The position numbers were made by a program, and so were the translations under genes. Below the pieces are notes generated by a model that searched no databases, was not told the origin of the DNA, and saw only the letters and a program-made list of their open reading frames with translations. From the sequence record OR565852: 44,932 bases of DNA; one strand, given 5' to 3'. Shown here piece by piece: positions 1,851 through 43,854 of the stretch. The stretch is from Citrobacter phage phiNP. The stretch's first letter is position 1, and the number at the start of each line of letters is the position of its first letter.

Positions 1851-2429
1851 TTACTCTACTAGCTCTGGCCATTGAATGTTGGGCACATCAGTTGGTTGCA
1901 CGCGACTGAGCAATATTCGATATTTTTTCCACTCTTTCAGGCGTATCTTCTCATCATCTGTAGCCATATCTAAATCAACAGCGTCCTGTAAGGTGGCAAT
2001 GATTTCACCAGCCTGTTGGAGCTGTTCTTTCTTCTGCGATTCAGCTTCTCTGATAAATGCCTCACGCTCTGCATCGACATCATCTATCCATGCTTCTCCA
2101 TTCCACTTCTGATAGTTCCTGTCTGGTGAAATAGTTGTCACATTTGGCGGTAATGCACCAAGGGACGAAATATAAATTGGCATACCTGTTTCAGTTTCAT
2201 ACACAGTAATCCCACGATGATCTTCAACCAAAAGCCATGTATTTTCATCAATATCAAAAATGGCCGCATATCCAGCAGGAATTTCTGGTGGCGCAATATT
2301 GGTACAATTTGCAGGTAATCCTGTATATGGTGGTATATATGTATCACTCTCACCAATAAATTCATTAGTACCATCTAGTAAGTTAAACACATTAATTGTT
2401 TGTGCTTCTGCAATCATTTTAAAAGTCAT
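1851..2429 (-). CDS. Tail fibre assembly chaperone (Tfa)
   Basis: C-terminal region typical of Tfa proteins (EAWIDDV..EAESQKK..LKEWKKYRILLSRV); immediately downstream of the tail fibre gene. Confidence 0.75.
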   Translation of the reverse strand: MTFKMIAEAQTINVFNLLDGTNEFIGESDTYIPPYTGLPANCTNIAPPEIPAGYAAIFDIDENTWLLVEDHRGITVYETETGMPIYISSLGALPPNVTTISPDRNYQKWNGEAWIDDVDAEREAFIREAESQKKEQLQQAGEIIATLQDAVDLDMATDDEKIRLKEWKKYRILLSRVQPTDVPNIQWPELVE

Positions 2430-19136: not shown

Positions 19137-21116
19137 TTACTGAGGTAGTAACTGTGATAACCGTCGGCGCTTCGGCGCCGCTGGCTCTTCGATGATGACG
19201 CCCGGCAGCCGGTAATCCGGTTTCGGCTGTGGATCCGGCTCTGCGGCAATCAGTCGTTCCGGGTTAGCGGCGATACTGTCGGCCTTCGCATTCAGCTTCA
19301 GCCCCATATGCAGCAAACCGCAGAGCGCGGCATAGCCGTAAACACGGCAGTCCAGCGCCTCGTTAGCCCTGCCTGCCAGTTGCTCCCAGACGCGATAGGT
19401 CTGGCCGCCGGAGTGTTTTACAACAGAGCGTTCGGCCAGTAGCTGCCCGAAATAATGCAAATCCCGGTCAGCCGGAAAATGCATATACGCCGATTTCGAC
19501 TCCCCGGCCTCCGGCGGCTCAATATGCAGTCGGTTGCGGATAGTATCCTTTGCTGAATTGACGCCAATAATGATTGGTCGGAACGTCGCCTTACTGCGCG
19601 ATGAGGGGCGCTTGGTCGGCCAGACGGGTGACCGCTTTCCGCCCCTGGCGGACTCCCCTTTTACCGCCCAGATACGGCGTCCCAGTCGCTCTTTGGCAAA
19701 CTCGTAAACCTTCTGGGTATGGTGGCCTCCGGAATCGTGGCAGGCGGCCATGATGGTGAATCCCCGGCCATCAGCCCGGCGCCATACCTGCTTCAGGTAC
19801 GCGTCCAGGCGCTGCCAGGGCTCTTCGGTTTCCAGGTCACCCTCGATCACGTCATAGGCAATGGACCAGGACTCTTCGTTACGTCCCCATCCGATGACCT
19901 CGATTTCAAAGCGATCGTCCTGGGTATCAATCCCAGCCGTCAGAACCGCCACGCCATCCGGCACCTCGGCGGCGTAAACCTCACAGCGCTCAGCCAGCCG
20001 TTTTTCACTCAGCGCCTTCTCCCCCCTGTCCTCATAGGGCTCCCCGAGGGTGGTGTTAATGAAGGTCTGGCGCTGCAGGGGATCGTCTTTTACCTTCAGC
20101 CACTCCGCGACCAGATATTTCCATGCCGCATTAGGGAACAGGCTGTATCCGGTCCAGATATGGAATCCCGCATGGCCGCTAAATGGCCGGGTCGCGCGCC
20201 ATTCACCATTTTTCACCATCCATGCTTTATCGCTGTGCTGAATCACACAGCCGTTGTGCCGACAGACGTAATAAGCGGATTCAGGAATGCCGTTGCCGTC
20301 CTTATCCTTTTCCCACTTGATACCGTAAGACGTATCCGGGCCGCCCCACTCCAGAACCTGATATTCGCCGCAGTGTGGACAGGGAACAAAATAGCGACGC
20401 TGATCGCTCTCCAGATACGCTTTCTCGATGCGACTGATGCCTTTCACCGTCGGTGTCGAGCCCAGCGCTATTTTTCGGTTCCAGAACGTTTCCGAGCGCT
20501 TGATCCCCAGCGCTATCTGGTCGCCTTCCGCACCAGCGCCACCTGCGGGGTACCCGTCCACCTCATCAAACAGGATGATGCGGCAGGTGATACGACGGAA
20601 ACCACCAGGACTGTTCGCCCCCACCATGGTCAGGTTAGCACCATTAGTGAACGTCTTTTTGAGGATGGTCTGATTACTGTCCTTCGCTTTGGGACTACCG
20701 CAAATGTCAGCCAGAACGGGGGTATCGCGCAGCATCGGCGATATTTCGGTTTTACTGTAATCCTCGGCATCCTCAACACGGGGCTGCACCACCAGGATCG
20801 GTGACGGGTCATGTGAGAGAAAATAGCCCACTACGTGGTCGAGGATCTTGGTATAGCCGACACGGGCCGATTTCATCACACTAATCTGGACAACAGCAGG
20901 ATCCGTAATGGCATCCATGATGCCGTCCTGGTACGCAAAGGAGCGAAATTTACCCGTCTGGGCGCTGGTTTCCTTGGACAGCACCGCATATTTATTGGCC
21001 CATTCGCTCAGCGATAGAGGTTCCGGCGGGCGAACGTCTGCACGGGCCTGGACCAGCGAGGCGCGGAAGCGGCGCCAGGCGTTATTGCTGATCCCCCCCT
21101 CTGCTGTCTGTGTCAC
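19137..21116 (-). CDS. Terminase large subunit, lambda gpA family
   Basis: 659 aa; GpA-type segment VLTAGIDTQDDRFEIEVIGWG. Confidence 0.8.
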   Translation of the reverse strand: MTQTAEGGISNNAWRRFRASLVQARADVRPPEPLSLSEWANKYAVLSKETSAQTGKFRSFAYQDGIMDAITDPAVVQISVMKSARVGYTKILDHVVGYFLSHDPSPILVVQPRVEDAEDYSKTEISPMLRDTPVLADICGSPKAKDSNQTILKKTFTNGANLTMVGANSPGGFRRITCRIILFDEVDGYPAGGAGAEGDQIALGIKRSETFWNRKIALGSTPTVKGISRIEKAYLESDQRRYFVPCPHCGEYQVLEWGGPDTSYGIKWEKDKDGNGIPESAYYVCRHNGCVIQHSDKAWMVKNGEWRATRPFSGHAGFHIWTGYSLFPNAAWKYLVAEWLKVKDDPLQRQTFINTTLGEPYEDRGEKALSEKRLAERCEVYAAEVPDGVAVLTAGIDTQDDRFEIEVIGWGRNEESWSIAYDVIEGDLETEEPWQRLDAYLKQVWRRADGRGFTIMAACHDSGGHHTQKVYEFAKERLGRRIWAVKGESARGGKRSPVWPTKRPSSRSKATFRPIIIGVNSAKDTIRNRLHIEPPEAGESKSAYMHFPADRDLHYFGQLLAERSVVKHSGGQTYRVWEQLAGRANEALDCRVYGYAALCGLLHMGLKLNAKADSIAANPERLIAAEPDPQPKPDYRLPGVIIEEPAAPKRRRLSQLLPQ

Positions 21117-21687
21117 TGCTCAACTCCTCCATAGCCTCATACACCACTTCCTGAAGCGCCTGGACGAATTCAGCATCGCTGACAGTCGGGGCCAGCACAC
21201 GCAGCCGGGGGCCATGTTCCGGGGCGATAGCCACCAGGCGGGTACGCATCCGGGAATATTCTTTCCTGACCTCAGAGATCATTTCTTCGAATGGCAACAG
21301 TGCGCCGGATTTTGTGTCATATTCCAGCTGCGTCAGCAGCGCCAGGTAGTTCTCCTTCATCTGACGGGCTTCATCCAGCGTCATTTCAGCACCACGGGCA
21401 ACCAGGATCCGCTCTGCCACTTTACTGGCCGACTCCGGTCGTTCCGGCGTCGCGGTGTTACCCTGGCTGTTACTCCTGGTGGTGTTACCCTTCCTGTTAC
21501 CCTGGCTGTTACCTTCCGCATTTTTTTTACCCGGGCGACTCACCGTTTTCCGGTAGCGTTCAATGTTCGCGTTGGACGCGTCCACATCGATATCTTCACC
21601 ATCCAGAACCAGCCAGCCCCGGGCTTTCCACTGGGTGACCGTCTTCCGGCTGACGCCGTGCAACCTGGCGAATTCTGACTGGTTCAT
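21082..21687 (-). CDS. Terminase small subunit (HTH N-terminus)
   Basis: 201 aa; N-terminal HTH-like MNQSEFARLHGVSRKTVTQWKARGW; overlaps the large terminase start. Confidence 0.6.
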   Translation of the reverse strand: MNQSEFARLHGVSRKTVTQWKARGWLVLDGEDIDVDASNANIERYRKTVSRPGKKNAEGNSQGNRKGNTTRSNSQGNTATPERPESASKVAERILVARGAEMTLDEARQMKENYLALLTQLEYDTKSGALLPFEEMISEVRKEYSRMRTRLVAIAPEHGPRLRVLAPTVSDAEFVQALQEVVYEAMEELSSDTDSRGGDQQ

Positions 21688-21857: not shown

Positions 21858-22562
21858 CTACTTCGCGGTGCGGAGAGCCTCCGCTATTGCCTGACTCAGT
21901 GCACCAGGTAGCAGCGCTTCCGCCATCTGGTTCGCTCTGTCCATGTATCCCAGTACTGGGCTGACAGGAAGCGCATCACCAAAGCGAATAAGGAGTTTCG
22001 GGGCTGGCTGCTTCATCCTGTCGCGGCGCATGCCGTTCGGAGAGCGTTTAGCCCGCTTTTTCCTCTTGCTCTTCTTTGGCTTCCTGCGCTGCCATACACC
22101 GTTAACACCGTTGACGTCACCGATGAAGGTATTCGGCTTTGCCTTTAGCTGGCTCATCTTGTTACGGGTCAGGTTGCCGTATTTGTTCAGCTTGATGTTC
22201 TTGGGGTTCAGCAGTGCTTTGCCGTTCAGCTTATGCTCTCCACCAAATTCGAAAGGCTCCAGGTATCCGGCTGCCGTATCGCGAACAAACACCCGGGCGC
22301 GCAGGTTGCTCTTTCTTGCCCCCACTGAGCCAACCGACTTAACGGTGAATGGTGTCGGATTATCCAGCCTGCGCTGGAATGCCGTCTTCTGCGCAGCCTC
22401 TATCTGTCGAACGACAGACGTCATAGCCTGGGCCGTGGCGAAAGGAATCTGCTTTTTTATCGCCTGCAGCTGGCGTGACAGGTCACGTAAATCAGCCATT
22501 GGACACCCCTTATAGTGCTGGTACCCATGGTAAATTACTGGTCCACGGTTTCGGGTTTCCAT
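21858..22562 (-). CDS. Hypothetical protein with a highly basic segment
   Basis: 234 aa; KPKKSKRKKRAKR segment; alternative start at MADLRDLS. Confidence 0.35.
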   Translation of the reverse strand: METRNRGPVIYHGYQHYKGCPMADLRDLSRQLQAIKKQIPFATAQAMTSVVRQIEAAQKTAFQRRLDNPTPFTVKSVGSVGARKSNLRARVFVRDTAAGYLEPFEFGGEHKLNGKALLNPKNIKLNKYGNLTRNKMSQLKAKPNTFIGDVNGVNGVWQRRKPKKSKRKKRAKRSPNGMRRDRMKQPAPKLLIRFGDALPVSPVLGYMDRANQMAEALLPGALSQAIAEALRTAK

Positions 22563-23175
22563 GAAAGCAGACTATTCGTGCATCGGGCGGCAACGTTCCA
22601 TTGCCTTCAGACCTTAATGAGTGCCATCCTGGCATTCCGGCGCACGCGATGTGCTGCTTATAGCTGACTATCTGGCCGGGATACTCGTTCTGCCAGATAA
22701 TCCGGGGCTGAAACACATCATCGAGAAAACCCTGGTCACCCCATTTCTTCCCAGGCTGCGTACACTCCTGCATGATGCGCACCGGCGCTTCCATGAACTG
22801 TTCCCATATCGACGCTTTATTTCCATGCGGTATTCGCATCACGGCAGATCCCACCGTTGAGGGATGATAGAAATCAGCCAGAATTCCCATGCGCTGCTCT
22901 GCCAGCAATTCCGTAATATCACCGGTAATAACCGTATCGAGATCAAGAAAGAAGATGTCGCTATCACACTGAGCCGGATCGAACAATTCGATCTTGCTCC
23001 ACCAGCCCGGCCAGCTCTGCTTCAGGGGAATAGTACGAACTCCCCGGATAGCCCTGTCGGAGAAGCACACAAAGTCATATCCACCAGGTAGCTGCCGTTT
23101 CAGCCATTTCACATGCTCTGGTGCATATGCGCCACCGCTGCGTAAAACCGTTGCGATTACGGGCTTATCTCTCAT
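22510..23175 (-). CDS. Putative glycosyltransferase-like protein (DxD-containing)
   Basis: 221 aa; FFLDLDTVI contains a DxD motif; assignment is tentative. Confidence 0.3.
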   Translation of the reverse strand: MRDKPVIATVLRSGGAYAPEHVKWLKRQLPGGYDFVCFSDRAIRGVRTIPLKQSWPGWWSKIELFDPAQCDSDIFFLDLDTVITGDITELLAEQRMGILADFYHPSTVGSAVMRIPHGNKASIWEQFMEAPVRIMQECTQPGKKWGDQGFLDDVFQPRIIWQNEYPGQIVSYKQHIACAGMPGWHSLRSEGNGTLPPDARIVCFHGNPKPWTSNLPWVPAL

Positions 23176-23785
23176 CAGTCATATCCATCCATTCGGCAAG
23201 TGTCATTTGAGGTACGGAAGCTAGCTTTCCCAGAGAAACCACATTAATCTGAGGCCGGGCTGACGCGAAAAGTAACGGCAAATGAGACAAGTCTCGGCAC
23301 CAGCCGCCCTCCACACGCTCTTCGTCAGTCGCATCAACCCCCACCAGAGCTACATCGATAAATCCCAGGTGGTACGCCAGACCCAGCGCGCCGTAGGCAC
23401 TGTTACCAGAATGAATTTCGCCAGGGCTATTGCTCAGGCCGGGAGTACACGACCAGCGCCATAACCACCAGCCAGGTGATCCAACCGTTGCCGGTTCAGC
23501 GCCACGCGATGAGATTCGCCTCATCCTGATAACATGCGGCGGTAGCCCGATATCATCCGGAACAGCCGCCACATAGCAGATGTTCGGGCGCGGATTAGCC
23601 AGCCGGCTCATATTTTCCGGACTGGGATCCAGCGTGAAAAAATAATCGGTGCTCGGTAGCCAGTCGATAGCTCCATTCACCGCAATAATTGTCACCCCGT
23701 CCGGTGGACTGAACTCCGCCGCACTGGGACCGGATGCGACGATAATCGCTCTATTGCTGTTTCCAGCCTTTCGCGTTGAAAGCAT
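23165..23785 (-). CDS. GT42/Maf(DUF115)-like Rossmann-fold protein, paralogue A
   Basis: 206 aa; IIVASGPS...IIAVNGAID and ...LGLAYHLGFIDVALVGVDAT resemble, from memory, the N-terminal motifs of Cst-II-type sialyltransferases and motility-accessory-factor proteins. Confidence 0.35.
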   Translation of the reverse strand: MLSTRKAGNSNRAIIVASGPSAAEFSPPDGVTIIAVNGAIDWLPSTDYFFTLDPSPENMSRLANPRPNICYVAAVPDDIGLPPHVIRMRRISSRGAEPATVGSPGWWLWRWSCTPGLSNSPGEIHSGNSAYGALGLAYHLGFIDVALVGVDATDEERVEGGWCRDLSHLPLLFASARPQINVVSLGKLASVPQMTLAEWMDMTDER

Positions 23786-24294
23786 TTCAGAGAGGTATCC
23801 CGTGAACAGTTAACAATTTCCACCCCAGAGCAGGCCGCGGCCAGGCGGGAAAATTCACCCTGCCAGGCGATAACGCTTTCATGTGTCGGGTTTCGTAGTC
23901 GTCCGGCGGCATGGGCCCCATGCCAGTGAATCCCGCGCTTCAGTGAGCAGTCATAGCCCAACAGCAGAATCCGGCTGGCGCCCAGGGTGGCGGCTAACTC
24001 AATGGCTCGCTGCCCTGAGTTAAACGATCCCGGTATTGCTGTTTGCAGGTAGCTAATGCCGAAATGAATGGCGGTGTAACGGCTGCCACACCAGCGCGCC
24101 GCCGTTACAGGAATTTTGCTGGCGTGCTCCCGCCACCATGCAAAATCAGCCGCATAGATTGCCGAGCAGAACGGCGCCACACGCCATGAATCATTAACGG
24201 CAATAATGGGGATTTCAGCCTCATAGAGCAGCTGACAATCGGCAAGCGTCAGGGATGGCCCCGACGCTGCACAAGCGATGACGGAGTTTTTCAC
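23692..24294 (-). CDS. GT42/Maf(DUF115)-like Rossmann-fold protein, paralogue B
   Basis: 200 aa; VIACAASGPSL...IIAVNDSWR and ...ATLGASRILLLGYDCS parallel the adjacent paralogue. Confidence 0.35.
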   Translation of the reverse strand: MKNSVIACAASGPSLTLADCQLLYEAEIPIIAVNDSWRVAPFCSAIYAADFAWWREHASKIPVTAARWCGSRYTAIHFGISYLQTAIPGSFNSGQRAIELAATLGASRILLLGYDCSLKRGIHWHGAHAAGRLRNPTHESVIAWQGEFSRLAAACSGVEIVNCSRDTSLKCFQRERLETAIERLSSHPVPVRRSSVHRTG

Positions 24295-24604
24295 TGTGTA
24301 TCCAAAATATATTCCGGGGAAAGTTGAAACTGGATGCTATCTGAAACAGATCGTTTATGCTGAGTTACCCCGGAAATAAGCCGGGTATTCAGAAGAAAAT
24401 AAAAAGCACTGTCGACGAGCCTCCGAAGAAGCCCGCCTGCACTGCCCGTTATGGTGTTACTCCAGATTATCCCTGGTTATCATAAGGGTTCAGCCCGCCC
24501 ATGCCGACACATGGGCGCACACAGCAACAAGGGGGATGGCTGCTGTAATGCCCTGTTCGCTGGGCCAGCGTCGGTTGCCACCCGATCTACGGCAGTGAAT
24601 TCAT

Positions 24605-24856
24605 TTAGCCCAGCTTTGCACGCACCAGCGCATCTTTCGCTTCAAGAAGTTTACGCAAACCAGCCGACTTCTCCGGGCCATTCGGCAGCATTGCATCCAT
24701 CAGCTTAGCCAGATCACCGATAGGCTTACTGACTTCCTGTAAATGCGGAGGTAAGTGCTCATACTCAAAATACTTAATGATCGGCGTGATGATAGTTGCC
24801 ATCGATAACCTCTGTTTGATTGTTGGATGCTCTAACTGAGTCATAAATACGTTCAC
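24605..24856 (-). CDS. Hypothetical small protein downstream of the spanins
   Basis: 83-aa ORF; the likely true start is the internal MATIITP. Confidence 0.3.
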   Translation of the reverse strand: MNVFMTQLEHPTIKQRLSMATIITPIIKYFEYEHLPPHLQEVSKPIGDLAKLMDAMLPNGPEKSAGLRKLLEAKDALVRAKLG

Positions 24857-25328
24857 ACGTCATTCCAGCGCGGTAGCTTTTGTCAGATCGTCCAGCATAG
24901 TATTTAGCTTCATCTGCAAGGCGTCCGAGCATGTCGGCGAGCATCGCGGCGTTGGCGCTGGCTGTTTTGCTTCGGACGGTAGCGGCAAGATCTGCGGTGT
25001 GCTTTGCGGCGTCCAGGCGGGTGGCAAGTTTTTTAGCTTGTTGCTGCAGCTGGCTAACAGTGGCAGACAAACCAGCAGCAGTGGCAGCAGCTTTTGCGGC
25101 TTGCGTTTGTGCATCTTTCACGGCCTCATCACGGGCAATAATGCGCCCTTGCTCAATCATTCGGGCAGCAGTCTGCGCGTTAGCAGCCTGTGAGGACTCT
25201 GCGCTGTCACGATCCGCCCATTTTATTCGCCAGGCCCGGTCGCGCCAGCTATCTCCCGTAACAAACGCAATGACCACCAGCAGTATGATCGCCAGAGGCT
25301 TCCAGAATGTCTTCAGCAGAGAGAACAT
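24774..25328 (-). CDS. Rz-like i-spanin
   Basis: 184 aa with N-terminal transmembrane segment and Ala/Gln-rich coiled-coil; contains the embedded Rz1-like ORF. Confidence 0.6.
   Translation of the reverse strand: MFSLLKTFWKPLAIILLVVIAFVTGDSWRDRAWRIKWADRDSAESSQAANAQTAARMIEQGRIIARDEAVKDAQTQAAKAAATAAGLSATVSQLQQQAKKLATRLDAAKHTADLAATVRSKTASANAAMLADMLGRLADEAKYYAGRSDKSYRAGMTCERIYDSVRASNNQTEVIDGNYHHADH
24860..25114 (-). CDS. Rz1-like o-spanin (lipoprotein) embedded in Rz
   Basis: 84 aa; signal peptide with lipobox LLASC; Pro-rich mature part; wholly inside the Rz gene in another frame. Confidence 0.55.
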   Translation of the reverse strand: MHKRKPQKLLPLLLVCLPLLASCSNKLKNLPPAWTPQSTPQILPLPSEAKQPAPTPRCSPTCSDALQMKLNTMLDDLTKATALE

Positions 25329-25331: not shown

Positions 25332-25739
25332 TCACCCCGCCAGATCGATAGCCTTAACGAAAACATCAAATCTGTATGGCTGGTCCCCGTTCTCATGCTG
25401 AATGATGGCCTGCAACAGCTTCATCATGAATCGGCTGTCGCTGGTATCAATACGCTGGTCGGGATCAACGCCCGTCGCTTTCGCTACGCTGTTGATATAG
25501 GACTGCGTGTCGTTCTCATTGGTCGGTGCCCAGCGGTTTATGATCCCGCTGATGGTGCTGAGCCCATGTTTACGCTGGTAGTTGCGCAAAATGATGATCA
25601 TCGCCCGAATGCCATACTCCGCCGATTTGAACTGACAGAATGATTTATCAGTGCGCTGAGTTTCTGGCACCAGCCCCTTCCACTCGTCACCCCAGCGAAT
25701 ATTGCCGGGGTTGTTATTGCGGATCCCGCGTGCTGTCAT
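25332..25739 (-). CDS. Putative endolysin
   Basis: 135 aa between holin and Rz; enzymatic class not determined. Confidence 0.45.
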   Translation of the reverse strand: MTARGIRNNNPGNIRWGDEWKGLVPETQRTDKSFCQFKSAEYGIRAMIIILRNYQRKHGLSTISGIINRWAPTNENDTQSYINSVAKATGVDPDQRIDTSDSRFMMKLLQAIIQHENGDQPYRFDVFVKAIDLAG

Positions 25740-26068
25740 TTATTGCTCTCCCTTGTGTTGATGCCGGCTCTCCTGGAGACAACAGCCAGCGCCATATCGC
25801 GGAGGCGATCAGCACCAACGAAGCCCACCAGCGCACCCACAAACGCGCCGGAATTAGCAGGGAGGCCGAAGTATTCAAGTAATGCTGAAATGGCCAGGGC
25901 GAAAATACCGCAGATCAGCGCTCCCGTTGCCGTGTACAGCTTCGGCTTTCCTGCCCTGATGTCGATCAGCGCTGAAATGCCCAGGGCGCACAGACCTGCG
26001 TATACCGAAGGGAGGTACATCGCGATCCATTTCATAGTTTGCTCAAAAATCCCGTTTGCATGGTTCAT
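25736..26068 (-). CDS. Holin
   Basis: 110 aa with predicted hydrophobic helices and a charged C-terminus; first gene of the lysis cassette. Confidence 0.6.
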   Translation of the reverse strand: MNHANGIFEQTMKWIAMYLPSVYAGLCALGISALIDIRAGKPKLYTATGALICGIFALAISALLEYFGLPANSGAFVGALVGFVGADRLRDMALAVVSRRAGINTRESNK

Positions 26069-26245: not shown

Positions 26246-27298
26246 TTATTTTTCTGGTAACGCTCTGATTTCTTCAACGGTCTGGTTAAACCGCTCTGTT
26301 TCCAGCTCGACGCCAATAGCCTTACGGCCTAAATCGATCGCCGCTTTTAACGTGGAACCGGAGCCCATGAAGAAATCAGCTACCACATCCCCGGGTCTGC
26401 TGCTCGCGCTGATGATTTGCTTCAGCATGTCAGCAGGCTTTTCGCAGGGATGTTTGCCGGGATAAAACTGGACGGGTTTATGCGTCCATACGTCGGTATA
26501 TGGCACGGCCACCGACACGGCAAAATACCGCCGAAGGGATTTGTACTCCTCCAGCAGTTCGGAATATTTACGGTTCAGTGACTGGTATGTTGCCACCAGT
26601 TGGTGATGAGGCTGCGCCAGTTCGGCACGCTGATGCTTCTCGATAGCGATCCGGGTGAAAAGCTCCTGCAATTTGAGGTAATCCGCTTCACCCGGCAGCT
26701 GCCACTGGCTGGAACCAAACCAGTGCGAAACCATGTTCTTCTTACCAGTGGCCTCGGTGATTTGTTTCGAGGTAACGCCAAGGGATTCCCGGGCATTCTG
26801 AAAATAGGTAATAAGCGGTGTCAGCACATGCTGTTTGAGTTCACCACATTTTGCCGCGTAACCATCGTCTTTGGGCTTGCATGGCCCCTGATAGTGTTCA
26901 GCAAACAGAACACGCTCAGTGGCCGGGAAATACGCGCGCAGACTTTCTTTATTGCAGCCATTCCAGCGACCGCTCGGTTTAGCCCAAATGATGTGGTTCA
27001 GGATGCTGAAGCGGTCGCGCATTAAGATTTCAATATCTGCAGCCAGCCGGTGGCCGCAAAACAGGTAAAGGCTACCGGCGGGTTTCAACACTCGCCAGAA
27101 TTCAGCCAGGCAGCGATCGAGCCAGCGAAGATAGTCTTCATCCCCTTTCCACTGGTTATCCCATCCGTTTGGCTTCACCTTGAAGTAAGGCGGATCGGTA
27201 ACAATCAGGTCGATGGAGTTATCAGGAAGGGTGGCGATGTAATGCAGGCAGTCAGCGTTGATTAACTCAACACTGTTTATTTTTACAGTATTTTTCAT
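26246..27298 (-). CDS. DNA methyltransferase (N4/N6 class, DPPY motif)
   Basis: 350 aa; IDLIVTDPPYF motif IV near the N-terminus and FFMGSGST AdoMet motif near the C-terminus. Confidence 0.75.
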   Translation of the reverse strand: MKNTVKINSVELINADCLHYIATLPDNSIDLIVTDPPYFKVKPNGWDNQWKGDEDYLRWLDRCLAEFWRVLKPAGSLYLFCGHRLAADIEILMRDRFSILNHIIWAKPSGRWNGCNKESLRAYFPATERVLFAEHYQGPCKPKDDGYAAKCGELKQHVLTPLITYFQNARESLGVTSKQITEATGKKNMVSHWFGSSQWQLPGEADYLKLQELFTRIAIEKHQRAELAQPHHQLVATYQSLNRKYSELLEEYKSLRRYFAVSVAVPYTDVWTHKPVQFYPGKHPCEKPADMLKQIISASSRPGDVVADFFMGSGSTLKAAIDLGRKAIGVELETERFNQTVEEIRALPEK

Positions 27299-27447: not shown

Positions 27448-27711
27448 TTACTGGAGGCGCTTATAACATCCGAATTGATAAAACGAAAACCCCGCCATCA
27501 CTAATTGCGTGAGTATAAATTCACAGCGTGCAAGGCTCAGGTGTGTATTCTCTGCAATTTCCCCAGCGGTCGCTGGCGTTGTACTTAGTTCATTAAGAAT
27601 TGCTTTCGCTTCTTCTGTCATATCTTGCTGATTTAGCATGTCTTTTACCTTAAAAAATAGTGTGACATACAGATAACTCTGGTCGCCGACAGCAGCAAGA
27701 AGTCTTTGCAA
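27448..27711 (-). CDS. Hypothetical small protein
   Basis: 87-aa ORF just downstream of the putative late terminator; possible internal start at MLNQQD. Confidence 0.3.
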   Translation of the reverse strand: MQRLLAAVGDQSYLYVTLFFKVKDMLNQQDMTEEAKAILNELSTTPATAGEIAENTHLSLARCEFILTQLVMAGFSFYQFGCYKRLQ

Positions 27712-27716: not shown

Positions 27717-27743
27717 ATAAAAAAACCCCGCCGAAACGAGGTT
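27717..27743 (-). terminator. Putative tR'-like intrinsic terminator downstream of the Q-like gene
   Basis: Minus-strand AACCUCGUUUCGGCGGGG followed by U7; sits where lambda has tR'. Confidence 0.4.
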
Positions 27744-27837
27744 AGATACAGTTTTGACAAAATATCAAATTAGCCTTAAATATGGCTCATTTTGTTGCAT
27801 TTTGCAAGCGCGTTAGACGGAGTTAGTGAAATTTAGG
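27744..27837 (-). promoter_or_regulatory. Putative late promoter (pR'-like) region
   Basis: Minus-strand TTGCAA followed about 17 nt later by a TATTTA-like hexamer; placement by analogy with lambdoid late control. Confidence 0.3.
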
Positions 27838-28533
27838 TCACATTTCCAGCGCATTAGCCACTTCCAGCCCTTCGCGCCTGATGAGGATCGTTTGCAGCGC
27901 CTGAGTGTCAAGCTCGACGAATGCCGCTTTAAATCTCGCCCAGTGCGATGCATACACACGTAACCAGGTTGAACGATCCACAGACATCATTCGCGCCAGC
28001 GCCGCACCGGCGTATTCTTTATATGTGTCATTGCTTCTGGCCGCAGCCACCTCCTGCGCTGCCAGCCAGACAAGACCGACCAGTTTTTTCACTACCCGTG
28101 ATTGCAGCTTCTTCTCTACCCTGCAATTCTGAAACTCATTCCATACATGCTGGCACATCAGCGTCTGGTACCTGAAGTTCAGATCGAAACCGTAGCAGTA
28201 ACGGATCCATGCCTGCTGGTAGTCATCCAGTGAATTGATTACCCGGCGCCACGGCGCGTAACTAAATTCCAGATCCTGCATTGGCGGGAACGGTCGCCGC
28301 CGGCTTCTCGTTTCCAGCACATAAACAGGCGTGGTTAATGCCTTCACAAGCGAGTGTCCACAGCCTTCCCCGCCCTCCAGTTCGATAAGAGGCTGCCCGC
28401 AGCGGGGCGTTTTATTTTTGTCTGCCGGTGGATGTTCGCTAAACGCCTGCAGTTGCCCCTTTGTCCCTTCAGATAAATTCGCCAGGGCGCGCTTTACTTC
28501 TATACGGGTATATTCAATGGCCTGTAAGTTCAT
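27838..28533 (-). CDS. Putative Q-like late-gene antiterminator
   Basis: 231 aa immediately upstream of the promoter/terminator region and lysis genes; Cys/His cluster (CGQPLIELEGGEGCGH). Confidence 0.5.
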   Translation of the reverse strand: MNLQAIEYTRIEVKRALANLSEGTKGQLQAFSEHPPADKNKTPRCGQPLIELEGGEGCGHSLVKALTTPVYVLETRSRRRPFPPMQDLEFSYAPWRRVINSLDDYQQAWIRYCYGFDLNFRYQTLMCQHVWNEFQNCRVEKKLQSRVVKKLVGLVWLAAQEVAAARSNDTYKEYAGAALARMMSVDRSTWLRVYASHWARFKAAFVELDTQALQTILIRREGLEVANALEM

Positions 28534-28554: not shown

Positions 28555-29646
28555 TTACGCTTTAACAATTACGCCGATCGCCAGCGCCCGATCCAGAAAA
28601 CGAAACAGCAGTTCCAGCTGTGTGCCATATTTCTGCTCGAACGCCGCTACATCGGCATGCAATTTGTCGTGGCACTCTCTGCACAGAGGGAACACGAACA
28701 GGTCATGGGCTTTGGTAGCAGTGCCACCCATCCCATGACCGATAACATGATGCGGATCGTCTGCCGGACGGCGACAACACTCGCAGGGCTGACTTTTAAC
28801 CCAGCGCGTATACTTCTCATTCTCCCAGCGGCGGCGCTTAGGCCGTAACATGAACGACTCCGGTGATTCAGGATCTGCGCTCAATGCAATAACCCTTGGC
28901 TGCTGCTCCTGCATTACCTGCTGATTTTCCTGTGGCCTGCACCTTTTTAACGATCCAGCCGTTTTTATCCTCCTCTGCAGGGCGACGGTTGGTCGGTTAT
29001 CTGCGGCAATAATGTCGCTTTCTTTATATACAGATGGGAACGGTTCATAGGGCATCTGCATCACTCTGGCTGCCAGTTCTTCCGGAATGGCATCTGCCAC
29101 ACCGACATAAATAGCCCACCAGCACAGCTCAGCGATCGACAATTCCCGCTCGCGATTAAACCGAAGGCCGACCAGCACGGTATCAATGATCCAGTCAATA
29201 ACGTTACGGCGCGCTATACCAGCCAACAGATCGGTTGACTGCTCACGAAGTTTGTTATCGCAGTGCCAGCAAAGCATCATCGCGCCCGGGGCGTGTCGCA
29301 TGGTCACCAGCTCATGATGGTGATAATCCGAGTGCGGGTACTGACATTCACCGATATTCCGCTCAAGCCAGTGATCCAGCCCGGAGAGACTACCCGCAGC
29401 ACGGATCACCCTCTCATCAGTGAAGAATGGGATCAGCGCTTCATCCTCCGCCAGCGGCTGCCGGGCATCAGGAACACGGCCGGTTGACAGCCTGGCCATG
29501 TTCTCCGGTTCGGACTCCACCAGCACGCGCCCCGCGGAGAAAAGGCGCATTAACTCTTTGCCCGGTTTGAGCAGTACCACGCCAAGACGTGGCACAACTT
29601 CAGGGGTTAACAGCGCTCTCATGCAACCTCCCGCTGCTGGTTGCAT
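28555..29646 (-). CDS. DUF968-like protein with C-terminal HNH/Zn-finger-like motif
   Basis: 363 aa; C-terminal CECCRR..HHVIGHGMGG..LCRECHDKLH. Confidence 0.55.
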   Translation of the reverse strand: MQPAAGGCMRALLTPEVVPRLGVVLLKPGKELMRLFSAGRVLVESEPENMARLSTGRVPDARQPLAEDEALIPFFTDERVIRAAGSLSGLDHWLERNIGECQYPHSDYHHHELVTMRHAPGAMMLCWHCDNKLREQSTDLLAGIARRNVIDWIIDTVLVGLRFNRERELSIAELCWWAIYVGVADAIPEELAARVMQMPYEPFPSVYKESDIIAADNRPTVALQRRIKTAGSLKRCRPQENQQVMQEQQPRVIALSADPESPESFMLRPKRRRWENEKYTRWVKSQPCECCRRPADDPHHVIGHGMGGTATKAHDLFVFPLCRECHDKLHADVAAFEQKYGTQLELLFRFLDRALAIGVIVKA

Positions 29647-31379
29647 AACTCGGGCAGGTTGGCTTCTACCAGCGCACGGGCAAACGGGGGCGGAACGGCG
29701 TTACCGCAGCGCGCTACCTGCTTGTCTTTTGCATAGCGCTGGCCGCGATAATCACGATCGATAATGTAACCTTCAGGAAAGCCCTGGGCCTTATACAACT
29801 CATGAGGCTGCAACATGCGCATGCCAATATCGACGATCTGGTAGTCGGCACCATCAACCGTTACCAGGCCGAAGCGATCATTGGTTGTGACGGTTCCCAG
29901 CGGTTCATCCAGCGATACGCCGCTTTTTTCATTTCCGTAGTACTTCATCAGGAAGGCGCGAACCTCTCCGATATGCAGACCGCCGGCGGTCACCGTAGGC
30001 ATGGGCTGATCCACTTTTCGACCGTCTTTGCAGGTACCGCGCAGATGAACCAGGTGTGAGGTCACAACAGCATGGTGATCAGTGGTCGTAACGGTATGCG
30101 CAGGTGCATCCATAGCGGCACCCGGCCCCGTATAATTACCGCCGAAGTGTTTCGCCAGAAAGGTGGTCACCAGCTGCGACTTTCCACCACCGCCAGCGGT
30201 TACTGTTCCATTGGGTTCATCAGCGCCGTGTCCGGTACTGTTACCAAACTGGCGGGCTATCATTGGCGCCACCAGGCAGGCGCGGGACTCTTTTAACACG
30301 GTGTGGGCCGGTTTATTTATCGCCCGCGGCTTCGCCTGATATTCGCTACCACCATTACCGGCGATAAACGGGGTAACGACAGCGTATCCATGGGTTTTGG
30401 TAATAGTCTGCAGCGGACTATCAATGCCCTGCCCACGAAAGCAGTCATATGCCGTGCGGCTGCTGGTGTGATTACACTTCACAATAAACGGTGTCGGGTT
30501 GTTCAGCACAAACCGCTCAATACCACGCGCAATGCGCTTCAGCGTATTTTCCGCCAGCAGCTTTGGGCGCTCAAAAATGCTCTGGCAGGGGATTGACCAG
30601 TCGATACACTCCGCCGCGGTACGCCATGGCGCCAGCCTGCCGCTCTGAACTTCCAGCGATTTAGGATCGCCATGTGTTGGCTCTGGCCAGTGAATTTCCT
30701 CACCATCACAGCGCATGACCATGAAGAATCGCTTGCGGATCGTCGGCGCGCCGAAATCGCAGGCTCGCAGTTCGCGATAATCGATGCCGTAGCCCAGCCC
30801 GTTAATAAGGCGCTGCGCCTGCTCGCTGCCTTTAGGTACAGACAGGAACTCGCACACCTCAGACAGGGCGGGATGATCCGCAGGTATGCCGGTGGATAGC
30901 ATGCCAACAAACGCCGCGAAGGTTTCGCCCGCGCGGGATGGATCCGGGCGCATTTCGTCTGCCAGCAGCGGCCCCCACGTTTTGAACTCCTCCACGTTCT
31001 CCAGCATCATGACACGCGGGCGCTTCGCCAGCGCCCAGCGTACTACTACCCACGCCAGACCGCGAATCTCTTTTTTTACCGGCTTAGCACCCTTCGCCTT
31101 TGAGAAGTGGCGGCAATCAGGGCTAAACCAGGCCAGGCCGACCGGATTACCACCAGTGGCCGCCAGCGGATCAACGTCAAACACGGACTCGCAGTAATGC
31201 AGGGTATCGGGGTGGTTAGTTTTGTGCATAGCGATCGCGTTTTCATCGTGGTTGATGGCAATATCCACGCTGCGCCCGATCGCCAGCTCGATCCCGGTAC
31301 TCGCGCCGCCGCCACCAGCAAAGTTATCAACGATAATTTCACGCATTGACGGCTCCCTGCATGCTGTAGACCAGACCAC
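29619..31379 (-). CDS. DNA cytosine-5 methyltransferase with long, internally repetitive variable region
   Basis: 586 aa; motif I DNFAGGGG, motif IV SPDC, motif VI ENV, C-terminal GNAV; ~280-aa variable region with six P..T(V/I)T..(V/L)VT repeats. Confidence 0.8.
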   Translation of the reverse strand: MVWSTACREPSMREIIVDNFAGGGGASTGIELAIGRSVDIAINHDENAIAMHKTNHPDTLHYCESVFDVDPLAATGGNPVGLAWFSPDCRHFSKAKGAKPVKKEIRGLAWVVVRWALAKRPRVMMLENVEEFKTWGPLLADEMRPDPSRAGETFAAFVGMLSTGIPADHPALSEVCEFLSVPKGSEQAQRLINGLGYGIDYRELRACDFGAPTIRKRFFMVMRCDGEEIHWPEPTHGDPKSLEVQSGRLAPWRTAAECIDWSIPCQSIFERPKLLAENTLKRIARGIERFVLNNPTPFIVKCNHTSSRTAYDCFRGQGIDSPLQTITKTHGYAVVTPFIAGNGGSEYQAKPRAINKPAHTVLKESRACLVAPMIARQFGNSTGHGADEPNGTVTAGGGGKSQLVTTFLAKHFGGNYTGPGAAMDAPAHTVTTTDHHAVVTSHLVHLRGTCKDGRKVDQPMPTVTAGGLHIGEVRAFLMKYYGNEKSGVSLDEPLGTVTTNDRFGLVTVDGADYQIVDIGMRMLQPHELYKAQGFPEGYIIDRDYRGQRYAKDKQVARCGNAVPPPFARALVEANLPELCNQQREVA

Positions 31380-32220
31380 CAGCCACGGTGATTATTTCGC
31401 TGGTGGGCATACGCTCAAGCCAGAGCTGATTGATGTTCGCCTTCAGCTTGTTCTGCTGGGCCAACTCCAGAGAATCCGCTCCCTCAACCTGATTGAATAC
31501 CAGGCCAACCTCCAGCGGCCAGATACGCGACTCCACTTCTGGCTGTCCCAAGCCAGCAGGCATAACGTCTTCCACCGGGGCTGGCGGCACCACTTTTTCC
31601 GCGGCAAATTGGGCCAGCGACATAAATGCCCGCCCCTTAGCCTCTAGATCACTGCGATGAATGTAGCTGAAACGCTCGCCCCGCCATGTCTTATCGAATA
31701 CCACTATGGCGCCAGCGAAAAATGCGCTGGTAGGCTGCTGTTTCTCGTCTGCCGGGATAAACCATGCAGGCAGGTCGAAGCCAATGCGGCCACGGATGAA
31801 AACAATATGATCAGCATCTTCAGGCCACCATGTTTCACTAGGTGCCGCTTTGATGAGGAACACATAGCGACCGCCCTTCTCACGCATGGCAGAGGCATAG
31901 CTCATGATATGACTCATGCCGGTGATCGCCTGCTTACCGTCGTATTGCGATCGGCTATAGGGCGGATTGCCGAACGCGGCGCCACCGATGGCGATCAGCA
32001 TTTCCGACCAATCCTGTGTCAGAGCGTTATCTTCGGCGGTGTACCAGACCGGGCATTTGGCGTTACTGTCGTCGGCGAACAAATCCAGCATCAGCGGCCC
32101 AAACATCGCATTGATGCCCCAGAACAACAGTTCCGGCGTGCGCCACTGATCGCCAACTTCTTTTAACTCGTGGACTGGCTTGCTACGTAGTTCAGCCAGC
32201 GCCAGGCAGTATTTATTCAT
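31339..32220 (-). CDS. Phage-type N6-adenine DNA methyltransferase (NPPY) with C-terminal extension
   Basis: 293 aa; WRTPELLF and FGNPPYS motifs of the phage Dam family; ~120-aa C-terminal extension of unknown function. Confidence 0.65.
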   Translation of the reverse strand: MNKYCLALAELRSKPVHELKEVGDQWRTPELLFWGINAMFGPLMLDLFADDSNAKCPVWYTAEDNALTQDWSEMLIAIGGAAFGNPPYSRSQYDGKQAITGMSHIMSYASAMREKGGRYVFLIKAAPSETWWPEDADHIVFIRGRIGFDLPAWFIPADEKQQPTSAFFAGAIVVFDKTWRGERFSYIHRSDLEAKGRAFMSLAQFAAEKVVPPAPVEDVMPAGLGQPEVESRIWPLEVGLVFNQVEGADSLELAQQNKLKANINQLWLERMPTSEIITVAGGLVYSMQGAVNA

Positions 32221-40709: not shown

Positions 40710-40928
40710 ATGGAGAAATTTATGCTGAGCCTCGATTGTGTTCCCATCTCAACTTATTGCAAAGAGACAGGCGAAACTCCTGATGCGATCAACAAGCGCG
40801 TACAGCGCGGTGTGTGGCGTGAAGGGGTTCAGGTGCTGAAAGTCGAAGGCGTTAAGGAGAGATGGATAGATCTTAGTGAGGTTGCAAAATGGGCCAGACA
40901 GAATCGCCTAAACTCCCGCGCGGCGTAA
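40710..40928 (+). CDS. xis: Excisionase-like protein
   Basis: 72 aa immediately upstream of and overlapping the integrase gene. Confidence 0.55.
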   Translation: MEKFMLSLDCVPISTYCKETGETPDAINKRVQRGVWREGVQVLKVEGVKERWIDLSEVAKWARQNRLNSRAA

Positions 40929-43846: not shown

Positions 43847-43854
43847 TTGATTGA

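What the first reader, a model, noticed from the sequence alone, without database searches (positions are those of the whole stretch)
22510..24294. Glycosyltransferase-fold gene cluster between the lysis cassette and the terminase
Three consecutive genes sit where lambdoid phages usually carry little. One has a DxD-containing segment (FFLDLDTVI). The other two are clear paralogues of each other, with a GPS motif near the N-terminus and an I-I-A-V-N-(G/D) segment that resemble, from memory, Cst-II-type sialyltransferases and motility-accessory-factor/DUF115 proteins. They would be expressed with the late operon. Candidate roles are glycosylation of virion proteins, modification of host surface polysaccharide, or a nucleic-acid modification pathway. 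The adjacent basic protein (21858-22562) may belong to the same unit.
Basis: partly seen in the sequence, partly recalled or inferred. Interest (0 to 1): 0.65.

Follow-up and report, generated by a model that had tools for sequence, protein, structure and literature searches.

The report
Phage late-operon three-glycosyltransferase cassette
Three adjacent late genes of this Citrobacter rodentium prophage are real glycosyltransferase-fold enzymes, counterparts of the never-explained pmgO-pmgP-pmgQ genes of phage P1, and they most likely attach a short sugar chain to proteins, though the target is unproven.

Summary
Three minus-strand genes lie at the stated coordinates: A (23692-24294), B (23165-23785) and C (22510-23175).

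- **Orthology.** The trio matches P1 PmgO/PmgP/PmgQ at 41/57/43% identity. These genes are non-essential in P1 and their function is unknown.
- **Distribution.** The trio recurs in P1-like, lambdoid and jumbo phages. It is often embedded among head genes, and extra glycosyltransferases or methyltransferases are inserted or fused.
- **Non-phage context.** In Pseudescherichia chromosomes the same trio is interleaved with Ig-repeat adhesin genes.
- **Donor clue.** E. coli WaaZ, which is needed for the third Kdo of the LPS core, belongs to the same superfamily as A and B.
- **Neighbour.** The adjacent basic protein is not part of the unit.

My best reading is a late-expressed cassette that builds a glycan on proteins, probably virion proteins, from host nucleotide sugars. 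LPS-core remodelling is the main rival. DNA modification is unlikely. Neither donor nor acceptor has been shown.

The parts
23692..24294 (-). Gene A: PmgO-type enzyme with a Maf/MptE/sialyltransferase-like single-Rossmann fold (200 aa, GTG start). The last ~16-20 residues are a non-conserved tail.
23165..23785 (-). Gene B: PmgP-type, a remote paralogue of A with the same fold (206 aa).
   Evidence: PHROG 2111 at 1.6e-95. Pfam MptE-like at 5.6e-4, covering residues 10-153. 57% identical to P1 PmgP over residues 1-203. hhalign of the A family against the B family gives 97.8% probability, E 6.8e-13. Invariant residues: P20, D53, G127 N128 S129, G149 D151, H168.
22510..23175 (-). Gene C: PmgQ-type minimal GT8-like GT-A glycosyltransferase (221 aa). 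It has the DxD motif (D78, D80), GDQ (146-148) and the C-terminal motif FHGNPKPW (204-211).
23692..23785 (-). 94-nt overlap between the 3' end of A and the 5' end of B, in different frames.
   Evidence: Coordinates. Overlaps of 4-103 nt occur in other loci (P1 103; L006 94; L092 100; L096 and XacN1 4). I read this as ordinary tight coupling and not a conserved element.
27724..28533 (-). Context inferred to drive expression: the Q antiterminator gene (27838-28533) and a tR'-like terminator (27743-27724) at the head of the late operon. The operon runs through the DNA methylase, lysis genes, A, B, C and the terminase genes.
   Evidence: ORF and synteny with a Phage_antiter_Q gene in L006. Terminator-like hairpin followed by a T-run. 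No strong terminator was found between 26068 and 21082 on the minus strand.

Best explanation
This is a three-enzyme glycan-assembly cassette, orthologous to pmgO-pmgP-pmgQ of phage P1. It is transcribed with the Q-dependent late operon.

A and B are small, soluble transferases of the Maf / GT42 / WaaZ type. In every characterised glycosyltransferase of this fold, the donor is a CMP-activated ulosonic acid. The cassette carries no sugar-synthesis genes, so the most plausible donor is the host's CMP-Kdo. C is a minimal GT8-type enzyme, a family of retaining alpha-hexosyltransferases, and would use UDP-glucose or UDP-galactose.

Together, in the cytoplasm of the induced cell, they would build a short glycan on Ser/Thr (or Tyr) residues of proteins made at the same time. 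These are most likely virion proteins. The process would resemble Maf enzymes glycosylating flagellin, or GT8 enzymes extending protein-linked glycans.

- **Shown here:** the folds, the conserved motifs, the orthology to P1, the conservation of the module, and its genomic contexts.
- **Inferred:** late expression, glycosyltransferase (not kinase) chemistry, the donors, and the protein acceptor.
For: **Folds.**
- C: GT8 fold. The top matches are GlyE, the Skp1 alpha-galactosyltransferase and glycogenin, which all act on protein-linked glycans; LgtC also matches.
- Both A and B keep the same motif set (GPS, N, D, NSG, GxD, His), so both look catalytically competent.

**The module is conserved across unrelated phages.**
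- 72 of 80 B-anchored viral loci have the order A-B-C, though most of these are P1-like.
- It is also present in P1 and JK004, EP_H11, the jumbo phage XacN1 and E. coli prophage L006.

**Sugar-chemistry partners are inserted or fused.**
- A GT4-like gene in EP_H11, and a TylF-type sugar O-methyltransferase fused to C in XacN1.
- A Nucleotid_trans GT-A gene in L092, and SAM methyltransferases in L099, L102 and L180.
- A fused to a TylF-type methyltransferase, and tandem A/B-type domains in one protein.
- In 73 of 80 A-anchored loci, A pairs with a GT9-like (heptosyltransferase-like) protein; 69 of the 80 also carry a methyltransferase.

**Link to proteins.**
- In five Pseudescherichia/Enterobacteriaceae genomes, the trio (43/64/44% identical to the window's) is interleaved with Big_1 adhesin genes. 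A lies 68 nt downstream of a 1177-aa inverse autotransporter.
- One A homologue is fused to Big_1/Big_13 Ig-like domains.

**Link to virion genes.** The module sits:
- after the major capsid gene (L102, L180);
- after the terminase and portal genes (L092/L093);
- among head-tail connector genes (PAJU2);
- just upstream of the terminase here.

The PAJU2 homologue of A was labelled 'structural protein' by its submitters.

**Donor.**
- E. coli WaaZ, required for KdoIII of the LPS core (PMC4690856), matches Pfam MptE-like at 6.9e-7.

**Physical properties.** None of the three proteins has a transmembrane segment, and their pI values are not consistently basic.
Against: - No acceptor has been identified.
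- The structural proteins of this phage are collinear with, and the same length as, those of Serratia phage BZS1, which lacks the trio. There is therefore no added Ser/Thr-rich extension of the mycobacteriophage type.
- No Big_1-like domain is present in this phage.
- P1 deletions of these genes give no plating defect (PMC9024508; PMC10695390). The P1 virion proteomics paper reports no glycosylation, though it did not look for it.
- The adhesin-island context probably reflects a single evolutionary event.
- Placement among head genes is also typical of unrelated cargo genes.
- The enzyme families involved (WaaZ-like, GT8, GT9, GT4) are exactly those that build the LPS core, which fits the rival explanation equally well.
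- A and B score below the Pfam cut-off for MptE-like, and the fold also includes pyrophosphokinases.
Confidence: 0.42

Rival explanations
1. LPS-core remodelling. A and B act like WaaZ on the inner core of nascent lipid A-core, and C acts like WaaJ/WaaO on the outer core. The infected cell would then make altered or truncated LPS. That would mask the LPS-core receptor, giving superinfection exclusion or protecting progeny from debris, or it would weaken the outer membrane at lysis.
For: - The enzyme families match the host LPS-core set. WaaZ is MptE-like and is the only protein outside the A and B families hit by the A profile. C aligns with WaaJ. The alternative partner X290 aligns with WaaF. 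EP_H11 adds a GT4-like gene.
- The title of Frirdich et al. 2003, seen in a reference list, says that waaZ overexpression truncates the outer core.
- From my own knowledge, P1 uses the LPS core as its receptor. Two active C. rodentium phages also do so (PMC6456863).
- A lone C-type gene lies between the integrase and the tail-fibre genes in phage Chlobot, a position typical of lysogenic-conversion genes.
- No acceptor-like extension is seen on the virion proteins.
Against: - Expression is confined to lytic growth, both here (late operon) and in P1 (C1-repressed and late promoters). That is poorly timed for changing a surface whose existing LPS persists.
- The module is common in strictly lytic jumbo phages and sits inside head-gene clusters.
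- The non-phage context is an adhesin island, not an LPS or O-antigen locus.
- The proteins lack the basic or amphipathic membrane-association tails of LgtC-type enzymes. C ends right after the KPW motif, and pI values are not consistently basic.
Confidence: 0.27
2. Glycosylation or other hypermodification of virion DNA before packaging, as an anti-restriction measure.
For: - The cassette lies next to the terminase, in an operon that also carries a late DNA methylase. The prophage has three DNA methyltransferases, including a C5-cytosine enzyme.
- In 9 of 80 related loci, a TET-associated DNA glycosyltransferase (PF20691) and a ParB_N protein follow the A-X290-methyltransferase module.
Against: - No hydroxymethylase or TET gene was found among the ORFs scanned.
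- A, B and C are unrelated to known DNA glycosyltransferases (T4-type GT-B enzymes, TAGT).
- P1 deletions of these genes gave no anti-restriction phenotype (PMC9024508).
- From my own knowledge, no sugar modification has been reported for P1 DNA.
- The pI values are not consistently basic.
- The chromosomal adhesin context has no link to DNA.
Confidence: 0.06
3. A and/or B are small-molecule pyrophosphokinases of the MptE or thiamine-pyrophosphokinase type, or inactive partner subunits, rather than glycosyltransferases. Only C would then transfer sugar.
For: - The only Pfam match is to the MptE-like family, and it is below the cut-off.
- B lacks the HWHGxH motif of A.
Against: - The best and longest structural match is to a glycosyltransferase (Maf, 166 residues).
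- The position after the second strand is Asn (IAVN). From memory, sialyltransferase Cst-II also has Asn there, whereas the kinases have Asp.
- The constant neighbours are glycosyltransferases and sugar-tailoring enzymes.
- WaaZ, a genetic Kdo transferase, belongs to the same superfamily.
Confidence: 0.1

Closest known systems
Phage P1 pmgO-pmgP-(ppp)-pmgQ (P7 hdmB-hdmC-hdmD)
   Same: The three proteins are orthologous (41/57/43% identity, E 1e-45 to 1e-79) and in the same order. The A/B overlap is similar (94 against 103 nt). Expression is confined to lytic growth.
   Different: P1 has a Ser/Thr phosphatase gene (ppp) between B and C, and the genes lie in a different genomic neighbourhood, next to tail and baseplate genes. 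The P1 genes are themselves uncharacterised: they are non-essential, with no plating or anti-restriction phenotype. The match therefore names the module but does not explain it.
Maf (motility-associated factor) flagellin glycosyltransferases, with GT42 sialyltransferases (Cst-I/II)
   Different: A and B are only about 200 aa. They lack Maf's flanking substrate-binding domains (632 aa) and the Cst lid. Pfam scores are below the cut-off. No nonulosonic-acid synthesis genes accompany them, so a different donor, possibly CMP-Kdo, is implied.
E. coli WaaZ (LPS-core KdoIII addition; CAZy GT73, from memory)
   Same: Same superfamily. WaaZ matches MptE-like at 6.9e-7 over residues 1-195. It scores 27 bits with the broad A-family profile, similar to B's 31 bits. 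This provides a host precedent for an enzyme of this fold that uses CMP-Kdo.
   Different: The similarity is distant: single-sequence hhalign gives only 27-39% probability. WaaZ lacks A's HWHGxH motif and is 283 aa. Its acceptor is lipid A-core.
GT8 retaining glycosyltransferases (GlyE, glycogenin, Skp1 AgtA, LgtC, WaaJ/WaaO)
   Different: C is a minimal 221-aa core with no C-terminal membrane-association or acceptor domain. Its Pfam GT8 score is far below the cut-off (11 against 24.3 bits).
Mycobacteriophage virion-glycosylation operons (Freeman et al. 2023, cited from memory; mentioned in PMC11256854)
   Same: Phage-encoded glycosyltransferases, often with an O-methyltransferase, co-expressed with structural genes. 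This is the only known case of phages glycosylating their own capsid and tail.
   Different: The enzyme families and host type (Gram-negative) differ. No C-terminal acceptor extension is seen on capsid or tail proteins here. Glycosylation of these virions has not been shown.
Adhesin glycosylation systems (Aah/TibC heptosyltransferases for AIDA-I/TibA; GtfAB-GlyE for serine-rich repeat adhesins)
   Same: Cytoplasmic glycosyltransferases encoded next to the large surface adhesin they modify. This mirrors the Pseudescherichia island, where A, B and C are interleaved with Big_1 inverse-autotransporter genes.
   Different: The catalytic families differ, apart from GT8 (GlyE) and the GT9-like alternative partner. 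The association here is by gene neighbourhood only.

Membership tests
CAZy GT8 / Pfam Glyco_transf_8 (gene C) | GT-A fold of the GT8 type | tested here: met
CAZy GT8 / Pfam Glyco_transf_8 (gene C) | DxD metal/nucleotide-sugar motif | tested here: met
   D78 is invariant and D80 at least 90% conserved in 76 homologues. The motif aligns with WaaJ LDADVV.
CAZy GT8 / Pfam Glyco_transf_8 (gene C) | C-terminal H-x-x-G-x-x-K-P-W motif | tested here: met
   Present as the variant FHGNPKPW (F204 H205 G206 P208 P210 invariant). It aligns with WaaJ HYTGATKPW.
CAZy GT8 / Pfam Glyco_transf_8 (gene C) | Score above Pfam's curated cut-off | tested here: not met
   11 bits against a cut-off of 24.3, E 0.31. 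C is a divergent GT8-like family (PHROG 1962), not a Pfam-defined member.
CAZy GT8 / Pfam Glyco_transf_8 (gene C) | Retaining transfer from a UDP-hexose | not testable with these tools
   Needs an enzyme assay.
MptE-like/DUF115 superfamily: Maf, GT42, WaaZ (genes A and B) | Single-Rossmann sialyltransferase-like fold | tested here: met
MptE-like/DUF115 superfamily: Maf, GT42, WaaZ (genes A and B) | Score above Pfam's curated cut-off for PF01973 | tested here: not met
   23.5 bits (A) and 20.2 bits (B) against a cut-off of 34.6. Many close homologues do carry a precomputed PF01973 hit.
MptE-like/DUF115 superfamily: Maf, GT42, WaaZ (genes A and B) | N-terminal G-P-S nucleotide-binding loop and (N/T)SG...GxD core | tested here: met
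   A: G12 P13 S14, N92 S93 G94, G113 D115. B: P20, N128 S129, G149 D151. All are invariant. The mapping onto Cst-II residues is from memory.
MptE-like/DUF115 superfamily: Maf, GT42, WaaZ (genes A and B) | Catalytic histidine acting as general base | tested here: inconclusive
   Invariant His candidates exist (A: H123/H125/H128; B: H168). No residue-level structural alignment to Cst-II or Maf was available.
MptE-like/DUF115 superfamily: Maf, GT42, WaaZ (genes A and B) | Maf-specific N- and C-terminal domains that bind flagellin | tested here: not met
   A and B are 200 and 206 aa. Only the central domain of the 632-aa Maf aligns (166 residues). They work like the Maf catalytic core but are not Maf proteins.
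MptE-like/DUF115 superfamily: Maf, GT42, WaaZ (genes A and B) | CMP-ulosonic acid donor | not testable with these tools
   Inferred from the fold family and the WaaZ homology. No CMP-sugar synthesis genes lie in or next to the cassette.
P1 PmgO-PmgP-PmgQ module | Orthology of all three proteins and the order A-B-C | tested here: met
   41/57/43% identity. Same order in P1, JK004, EP_H11, XacN1 and 72 of 80 B-anchored loci.
P1 PmgO-PmgP-PmgQ module | Expression confined to lytic growth | tested here: inconclusive
   Position in the Q-dependent late operon with no strong internal terminator. P1 has C1 operators and a late promoter upstream. No transcript data.
Mycobacteriophage-type virion glycosylation | Ser/Thr-rich acceptor extension on capsid or tail-tube protein | tested here: not met
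   All structural proteins are collinear with, and within a few residues of the length of, those of the trio-less phage BZS1. The variable tail fibre is the only exception.
Mycobacteriophage-type virion glycosylation | Glycan detectable on virion proteins | not testable with these tools
   Needs glycoprotein staining or mass spectrometry.
Serotype-converting LPS modification (Gtr/Oac-type lysogenic conversion) | Location beside att/int, expression in the lysogen, and membrane-embedded enzymes | tested here: not met
   The cassette lies in the late operon, about 17 kb from int. No hydrophobic segment is present (maximum Kyte-Doolittle 19-residue score 1.3-1.6).
Phage DNA glycosyltransferases (T4 alpha/beta-GT, TAGT) | Homology to a DNA glycosyltransferase family and a hydroxymethyl-base pathway in the genome | tested here: not met
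   No such Pfam or fold match for A, B or C. No hydroxymethylase or TET among the ORFs scanned. TAGT occurs only as a separate neighbouring gene in 9 related loci.

The most novel reading that the evidence does not exclude
Tailed phages of Gram-negative bacteria, including the classic phage P1, O-glycosylate their own virion proteins with a short LPS-core-like glycan containing Kdo and hexose. Some relatives would add heptose or methylated sugars. The glycan would be made by a dedicated phage cassette from host LPS precursors. The same cassette would have been borrowed by enterobacteria to glycosylate Ig-repeat adhesins. If so, this would be the first Kdo-type protein glycosylation and the first virion glycosylation system described outside mycobacteriophages.
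Probability: 0.15. Interest if true: 0.85.

Novelty: new variant of a known kind. Interest (0 to 1): 0.58.

Why it matters
The cassette is widespread. The A family alone has about 6000 clusters at 50% identity with E <= 1e-3. It occurs in lambdoid prophages of enteric pathogens, in P1-type phage-plasmids, in Pseudomonas siphophages and in jumbo phages. Yet none of its members has an assigned function in the literature I could search.

P1 and E. coli K-12 carry the orthologues, and single-gene P1 deletions already exist, so the question can be tested directly with standard glycoproteomics and LPS analysis.

- **If the target is the virion**, this would extend phage self-glycosylation to Gram-negative hosts. 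That bears on phage immunogenicity and phage therapy.
- **If the target is LPS**, it would be a way of editing the receptor during lytic growth.
- **The link to WaaZ** suggests a small, soluble family of CMP-Kdo transferases that could be useful for glycoengineering.
- **The adhesin-island context** predicts an unrecognised adhesin glycosylation system in Enterobacteriaceae.

Tried and rejected
- **Nucleotide similarity.** Searches of the region against the phage and E. coli genome collections found nothing. Only protein-level searches were informative.
- **Sequence searches against solved structures.** Single sequences and family profiles gave only noise for A, B and C. Fold comparison was needed.
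- **NCBIfam.** No family for any of the four proteins.
- **The adjacent basic protein (21858-22562) as part of the unit: rejected.**
  - Its likely start is 22499.
  - Homologues sit just upstream of cos/terS in phages that lack the trio: Serratia BZS1 at 71% identity, plus Rhodobacter, Yersinia and Ralstonia phages.
  - P1, L006 and XacN1 carry the trio without it.
- **The A/B overlap as a special element (for example a frameshift site): rejected.** The overlap length varies from 4 to 103 nt among loci.
- **X290, the usual partner of A, as a disguised B or C: rejected.** hhalign probabilities are below 1%. It is GT9-like instead.
- **Search for an acceptor in this phage.** There is no length difference or extension relative to the trio-less BZS1, and no Big_1-like domain.
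- **P0235, a C homologue with an N-terminal extension.** I suspected a sulfotransferase from a motif, but it gave no Pfam hit, so I make no claim.
- **Rfam.** A scan of the whole window found no match.
- **AlphaFold-database fold library.** It was unavailable, so I could not compare the A model with the predicted WaaZ structure.
- **Frirdich et al. 2003.** The paper is not held. Only its title, seen in a reference list, is used.
- **Which C. rodentium prophage this is.** Not settled. No tmRNA or tRNA gene lies in the window, so identity with the ssrA-integrating phage PhiNP (PMC6456863) is unconfirmed.


Full report
**What is in the sequence**

All relevant genes are on the minus strand. Read 5' to 3' on that strand:

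| Position | Gene |
|---|---|
| 27838-28533 | Q antiterminator homologue |
| 27743-27724 | hairpin with T-run, resembling tR' |
| 27448-27711 | small ORF |
| 26246-27298 | N6/N4 DNA methylase |
| 25736-26068 | holin |
| 25332-25739 | endolysin |
| 24774-25328 | Rz, with Rz1 embedded at 24860-25114 |
| 24605-24856 | 83-aa ORF |
| 24295-24604 | 310-nt gap |
| 23692-24294 | A (200 aa) |
| 23165-23785 | B (206 aa) |
| 22510-23175 | C (221 aa) |
| 21858-22562 | ORF D |
| 21082-21687 | small terminase subunit |
| 19137-21116 | large terminase subunit |

No convincing terminator lies between the lysis genes and the terminase. The trio therefore sits inside the late operon. Co-transcription is inferred from this layout and was not measured.

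Proteins identical to A and C occur on a 5.35-Mb Citrobacter rodentium contig. The window is therefore a C. rodentium prophage with a lambdoid regulatory and head module and a Mu-like contractile tail. It is collinear with Serratia phage BZS1.

**Fold and family**

- PHROGs places A in family 4603 ('alpha-2,3-sialyltransferase', 7e-55). B falls in 2111 (unknown function, 2e-95) and C in 1962 ('glycosyltransferase', 2e-95). A and B each weakly hit the other's family.
- Pfam gives only sub-threshold MptE-like matches for A and B, and a trace GT8 match for C.
- A model of C (pLDDT 96.2) matches GT8 enzymes: GlyE 16.4, the Skp1 alpha-galactosyltransferase 16.0, glycogenin 16.0 and LgtC 15.7. E. 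coli WaaJ aligns with the C family across the DxD motif and the C-terminal KPW motif.
- A and B are homologous, but only at profile level. Both retain the same putative active-site motifs.

**Relatives and module structure**

The trio is the counterpart of P1 pmgO-pmgP-pmgQ (P7 hdmB-hdmC-hdmD), with 41, 57 and 43% identity. In P1 a phosphatase gene separates B from C. The operon has C1 operators and a late promoter.

In the literature I could search, the P1 genes are non-essential. They show no plating or anti-restriction phenotype, and no function has been assigned (PMC10695390; PMC9024508).

The trio also occurs in:
- Cronobacter phage JK004;
- E. coli phages EP_H11 and IME392, with an extra GT4-like gene;
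- an E. coli lambdoid prophage, in the same slot between lysis genes and terminase;
- Xanthomonas and Stenotrophomonas jumbo phages. In XacN1, C is fused to a TylF-type sugar O-methyltransferase.

Of 80 viral loci anchored on B, 72 have the order A-B-C, though most of these are P1-like. Independent contexts place the module as follows:
- after the terminase and portal genes, with an added Nucleotid_trans GT-A gene (L092/L093);
- after the major capsid gene (L102);
- between the major capsid gene and the gp6-like connector in a Zhongshania prophage (L180).

Some metagenomic proteins fuse two A/B-type domains. Others fuse A to a TylF-type methyltransferase or to Big_1/Big_13 Ig-like domains.

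A is more widespread than the trio, with about 6000 clusters at 50% identity. In 73 of 80 A-anchored viral loci it is followed by a 290-aa protein, and in 69 by a SAM methyltransferase as well. The 290-aa protein is unrelated to B or C. It resembles the C-terminal domain of the heptosyltransferase WaaF (PDB 1psw at E 0.005; hhalign 87%). That arrangement is also found among the head-tail genes of Pseudomonas phage PAJU2 and in Klebsiella jumbo phage Eowyn.

The constant company of other glycosyltransferases and sugar-tailoring enzymes argues that A and B do sugar chemistry and are not kinases.

**Donor clue**

E. coli K-12 WaaZ matches Pfam MptE-like at 6.9e-7 across residues 1-195. Loss of WaaZ removes KdoIII from the LPS core (PMC4690856).

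It nonetheless gives a host precedent for an enzyme of this fold associated with CMP-Kdo. No CMP-sugar synthesis genes accompany the cassette, and hosts such as E. coli K-12 make no sialic-acid-type sugars (my own knowledge). CMP-Kdo is therefore the most economical donor. This is inference.

**Acceptor**

Three lines of evidence point to proteins.

1. **A non-phage context.** In five species-level Pseudescherichia/Enterobacteriaceae genomes, A, B and C (43/64/44% identical to the window's) are interleaved with adhesin genes.
   - A lies 68 nt downstream of a 1177-aa inverse autotransporter (IAT_beta plus seven Big_1 repeats).
   - B and C lie between that gene and further Big_1 and Big_1+RCC1 proteins.
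   - An MscS channel gene flanks the island.
   - This layout is typical of adhesin glycosylation systems.
2. **Repeated placement inside head or head-tail gene clusters** in unrelated phages.
3. **Structural matches and annotation.** The closest structural relatives (Maf, GlyE, glycogenin, Skp1 GalT) act on proteins or protein-linked glycans. The PAJU2 submitters labelled the A homologue a 'structural protein'.

Against this:
- no acceptor signature is visible;
- structural proteins match those of trio-less BZS1 in length;
- no Big_1 domain exists in this phage;
- the adhesin island is probably one evolutionary event.

**The main rival: LPS-core remodelling**

The families involved (WaaZ-like, GT8, GT9-like, GT4-like) are those of the host LPS-core pathway. 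From my own knowledge, P1 binds the LPS core. Two active C. rodentium phages also do so (PMC6456863). A lone C-type gene occupies a conversion-like position in phage Chlobot.

Several points weigh against this rival:
- lytic-only timing;
- presence of the module in strictly lytic jumbo phages;
- soluble, non-basic proteins;
- the adhesin context.

**Other rivals**

DNA modification is unlikely.
- A, B and C show no relation to known DNA glycosyltransferases.
- No hydroxymethyl-base pathway was found among the ORFs scanned.
- The P1 deletions have no anti-restriction phenotype.
- The TET-associated glycosyltransferase seen in nine related loci is a separate neighbouring gene.

A kinase reading of A and B cannot be excluded by computation alone.

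**The neighbouring ORF D**

Its probable start is 22499, where an ATG follows AAGGGG. This makes it 213 aa and non-overlapping with C. It matches PHROG 1924 ('minor tail protein').

Its homologues lie just upstream of cos/terS in phages that lack the trio (BZS1 at 71% identity; Rhodobacter, Yersinia and Ralstonia phages). Phages with the trio often lack it. It is a separate late gene.

**Verdict**

The cassette is a member of a widespread but functionally unexplained phage module. Its best-supported role is late glycosylation of proteins using host nucleotide sugars (confidence about 0.4). LPS-core remodelling is the serious alternative (about 0.27).

I call it a new variant of a known kind. 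Phage-encoded glycosylation is known, but this enzyme combination, its likely Kdo-type donor and its target are not.

Noticed in passing
window 21858-22562 (-): ORF D probably starts at 22499 (ATG after AAGGGG), giving 213 aa. It has a very basic stretch (RRKPKKSKRKKRAKRS). It matches PHROG 1924 'minor tail protein'. Homologues sit immediately upstream of cos/terS at the right end of several phage genomes that lack the glycosyltransferase trio. Its function is unknown.
   Followed up: partly
L173, L174, L176, L178, L179 (for example L173 2343-13969): A chromosomal island in Pseudescherichia/Enterobacteriaceae genomes. A-, B- and C-type genes are interleaved with an inverse autotransporter (IAT_beta plus 7 Big_1 repeats) and several other Big_1/RCC1 proteins. 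This predicts an undescribed adhesin glycosylation system.
   Followed up: partly
L172 5346-6197 (E. coli K-12 waaZ): WaaZ, the gene needed for KdoIII of the LPS core, matches Pfam MptE-like (6.9e-7, residues 1-195). It also scores with the phage A-family profile. This places it in the Maf/sialyltransferase-like fold superfamily.
   Followed up: partly
L011-L089 (for example L012 10001-12048; PAJU2 L002 4974-6917): Most A-type genes in viral contigs (73 of 80) are followed not by B and C but by a 290-aa GT9-like (heptosyltransferase-like) protein; 69 of the 80 also carry a SAM methyltransferase. In many of the inspected contigs this alternative module lies between the lysis genes and the terminase; in PAJU2-like contigs it lies among head-tail genes.
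   Followed up: partly
L043, L046, L048, L053, L056, L057, L059, L067, L069 (for example L069 13128-14015): In nine related prophage contigs, a ParB_N-domain protein and a TET-associated glycosyltransferase (PF20691, a DNA glycosyltransferase family) follow the A-X290-methyltransferase module. No TET gene was seen within the flanks examined.
   Followed up: no
window 26246-27298, 29619-31379, 31339-32220 (-): The prophage carries three DNA methyltransferases: an N6/N4 enzyme inside the late operon, a 586-aa C5-cytosine enzyme whose Pfam match covers only its N-terminal part, and a Dam-type enzyme.
   Followed up: no
window 42059-44807 (+): Beyond the integrase (40889-42055) the GC content drops to 33-36%. 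This stretch encodes an AAA_15/AbiEii-type ATPase (595 aa) and a D12-class adenine methyltransferase. It may be a separate defence or restriction island. No tRNA or tmRNA gene is present in the window.
   Followed up: no
window 24295-24604: A 310-nt stretch with no ORF lies between the 83-aa ORF after Rz and gene A. It has only a weak promoter-like site (24507-24479, minus strand) and no Rfam match.
   Followed up: partly
window 23165-23785 (-): The public annotation of B in C. rodentium is 176 aa (P0241). Homologues, including P1 PmgP, align from residue 1 of the 206-aa ORF. The annotated start is therefore probably too far downstream.
   Followed up: partly
window 846-1835 (+) and 1851-3277 (-): Two plus-strand ORFs (136 and 184 aa) face the minus-strand tail-fibre and tail-fibre-assembly genes at the left end. 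This may be an alternative or invertible tail-fibre segment.
   Followed up: no
L171 1781-2350 (PAJU2 ORF010): The original PAJU2 record labels the A homologue 'structural protein'. In that stretch, the only other gene with this wording is the major tail protein. This hints at detection in virions. The source paper could not be read.
   Followed up: partly
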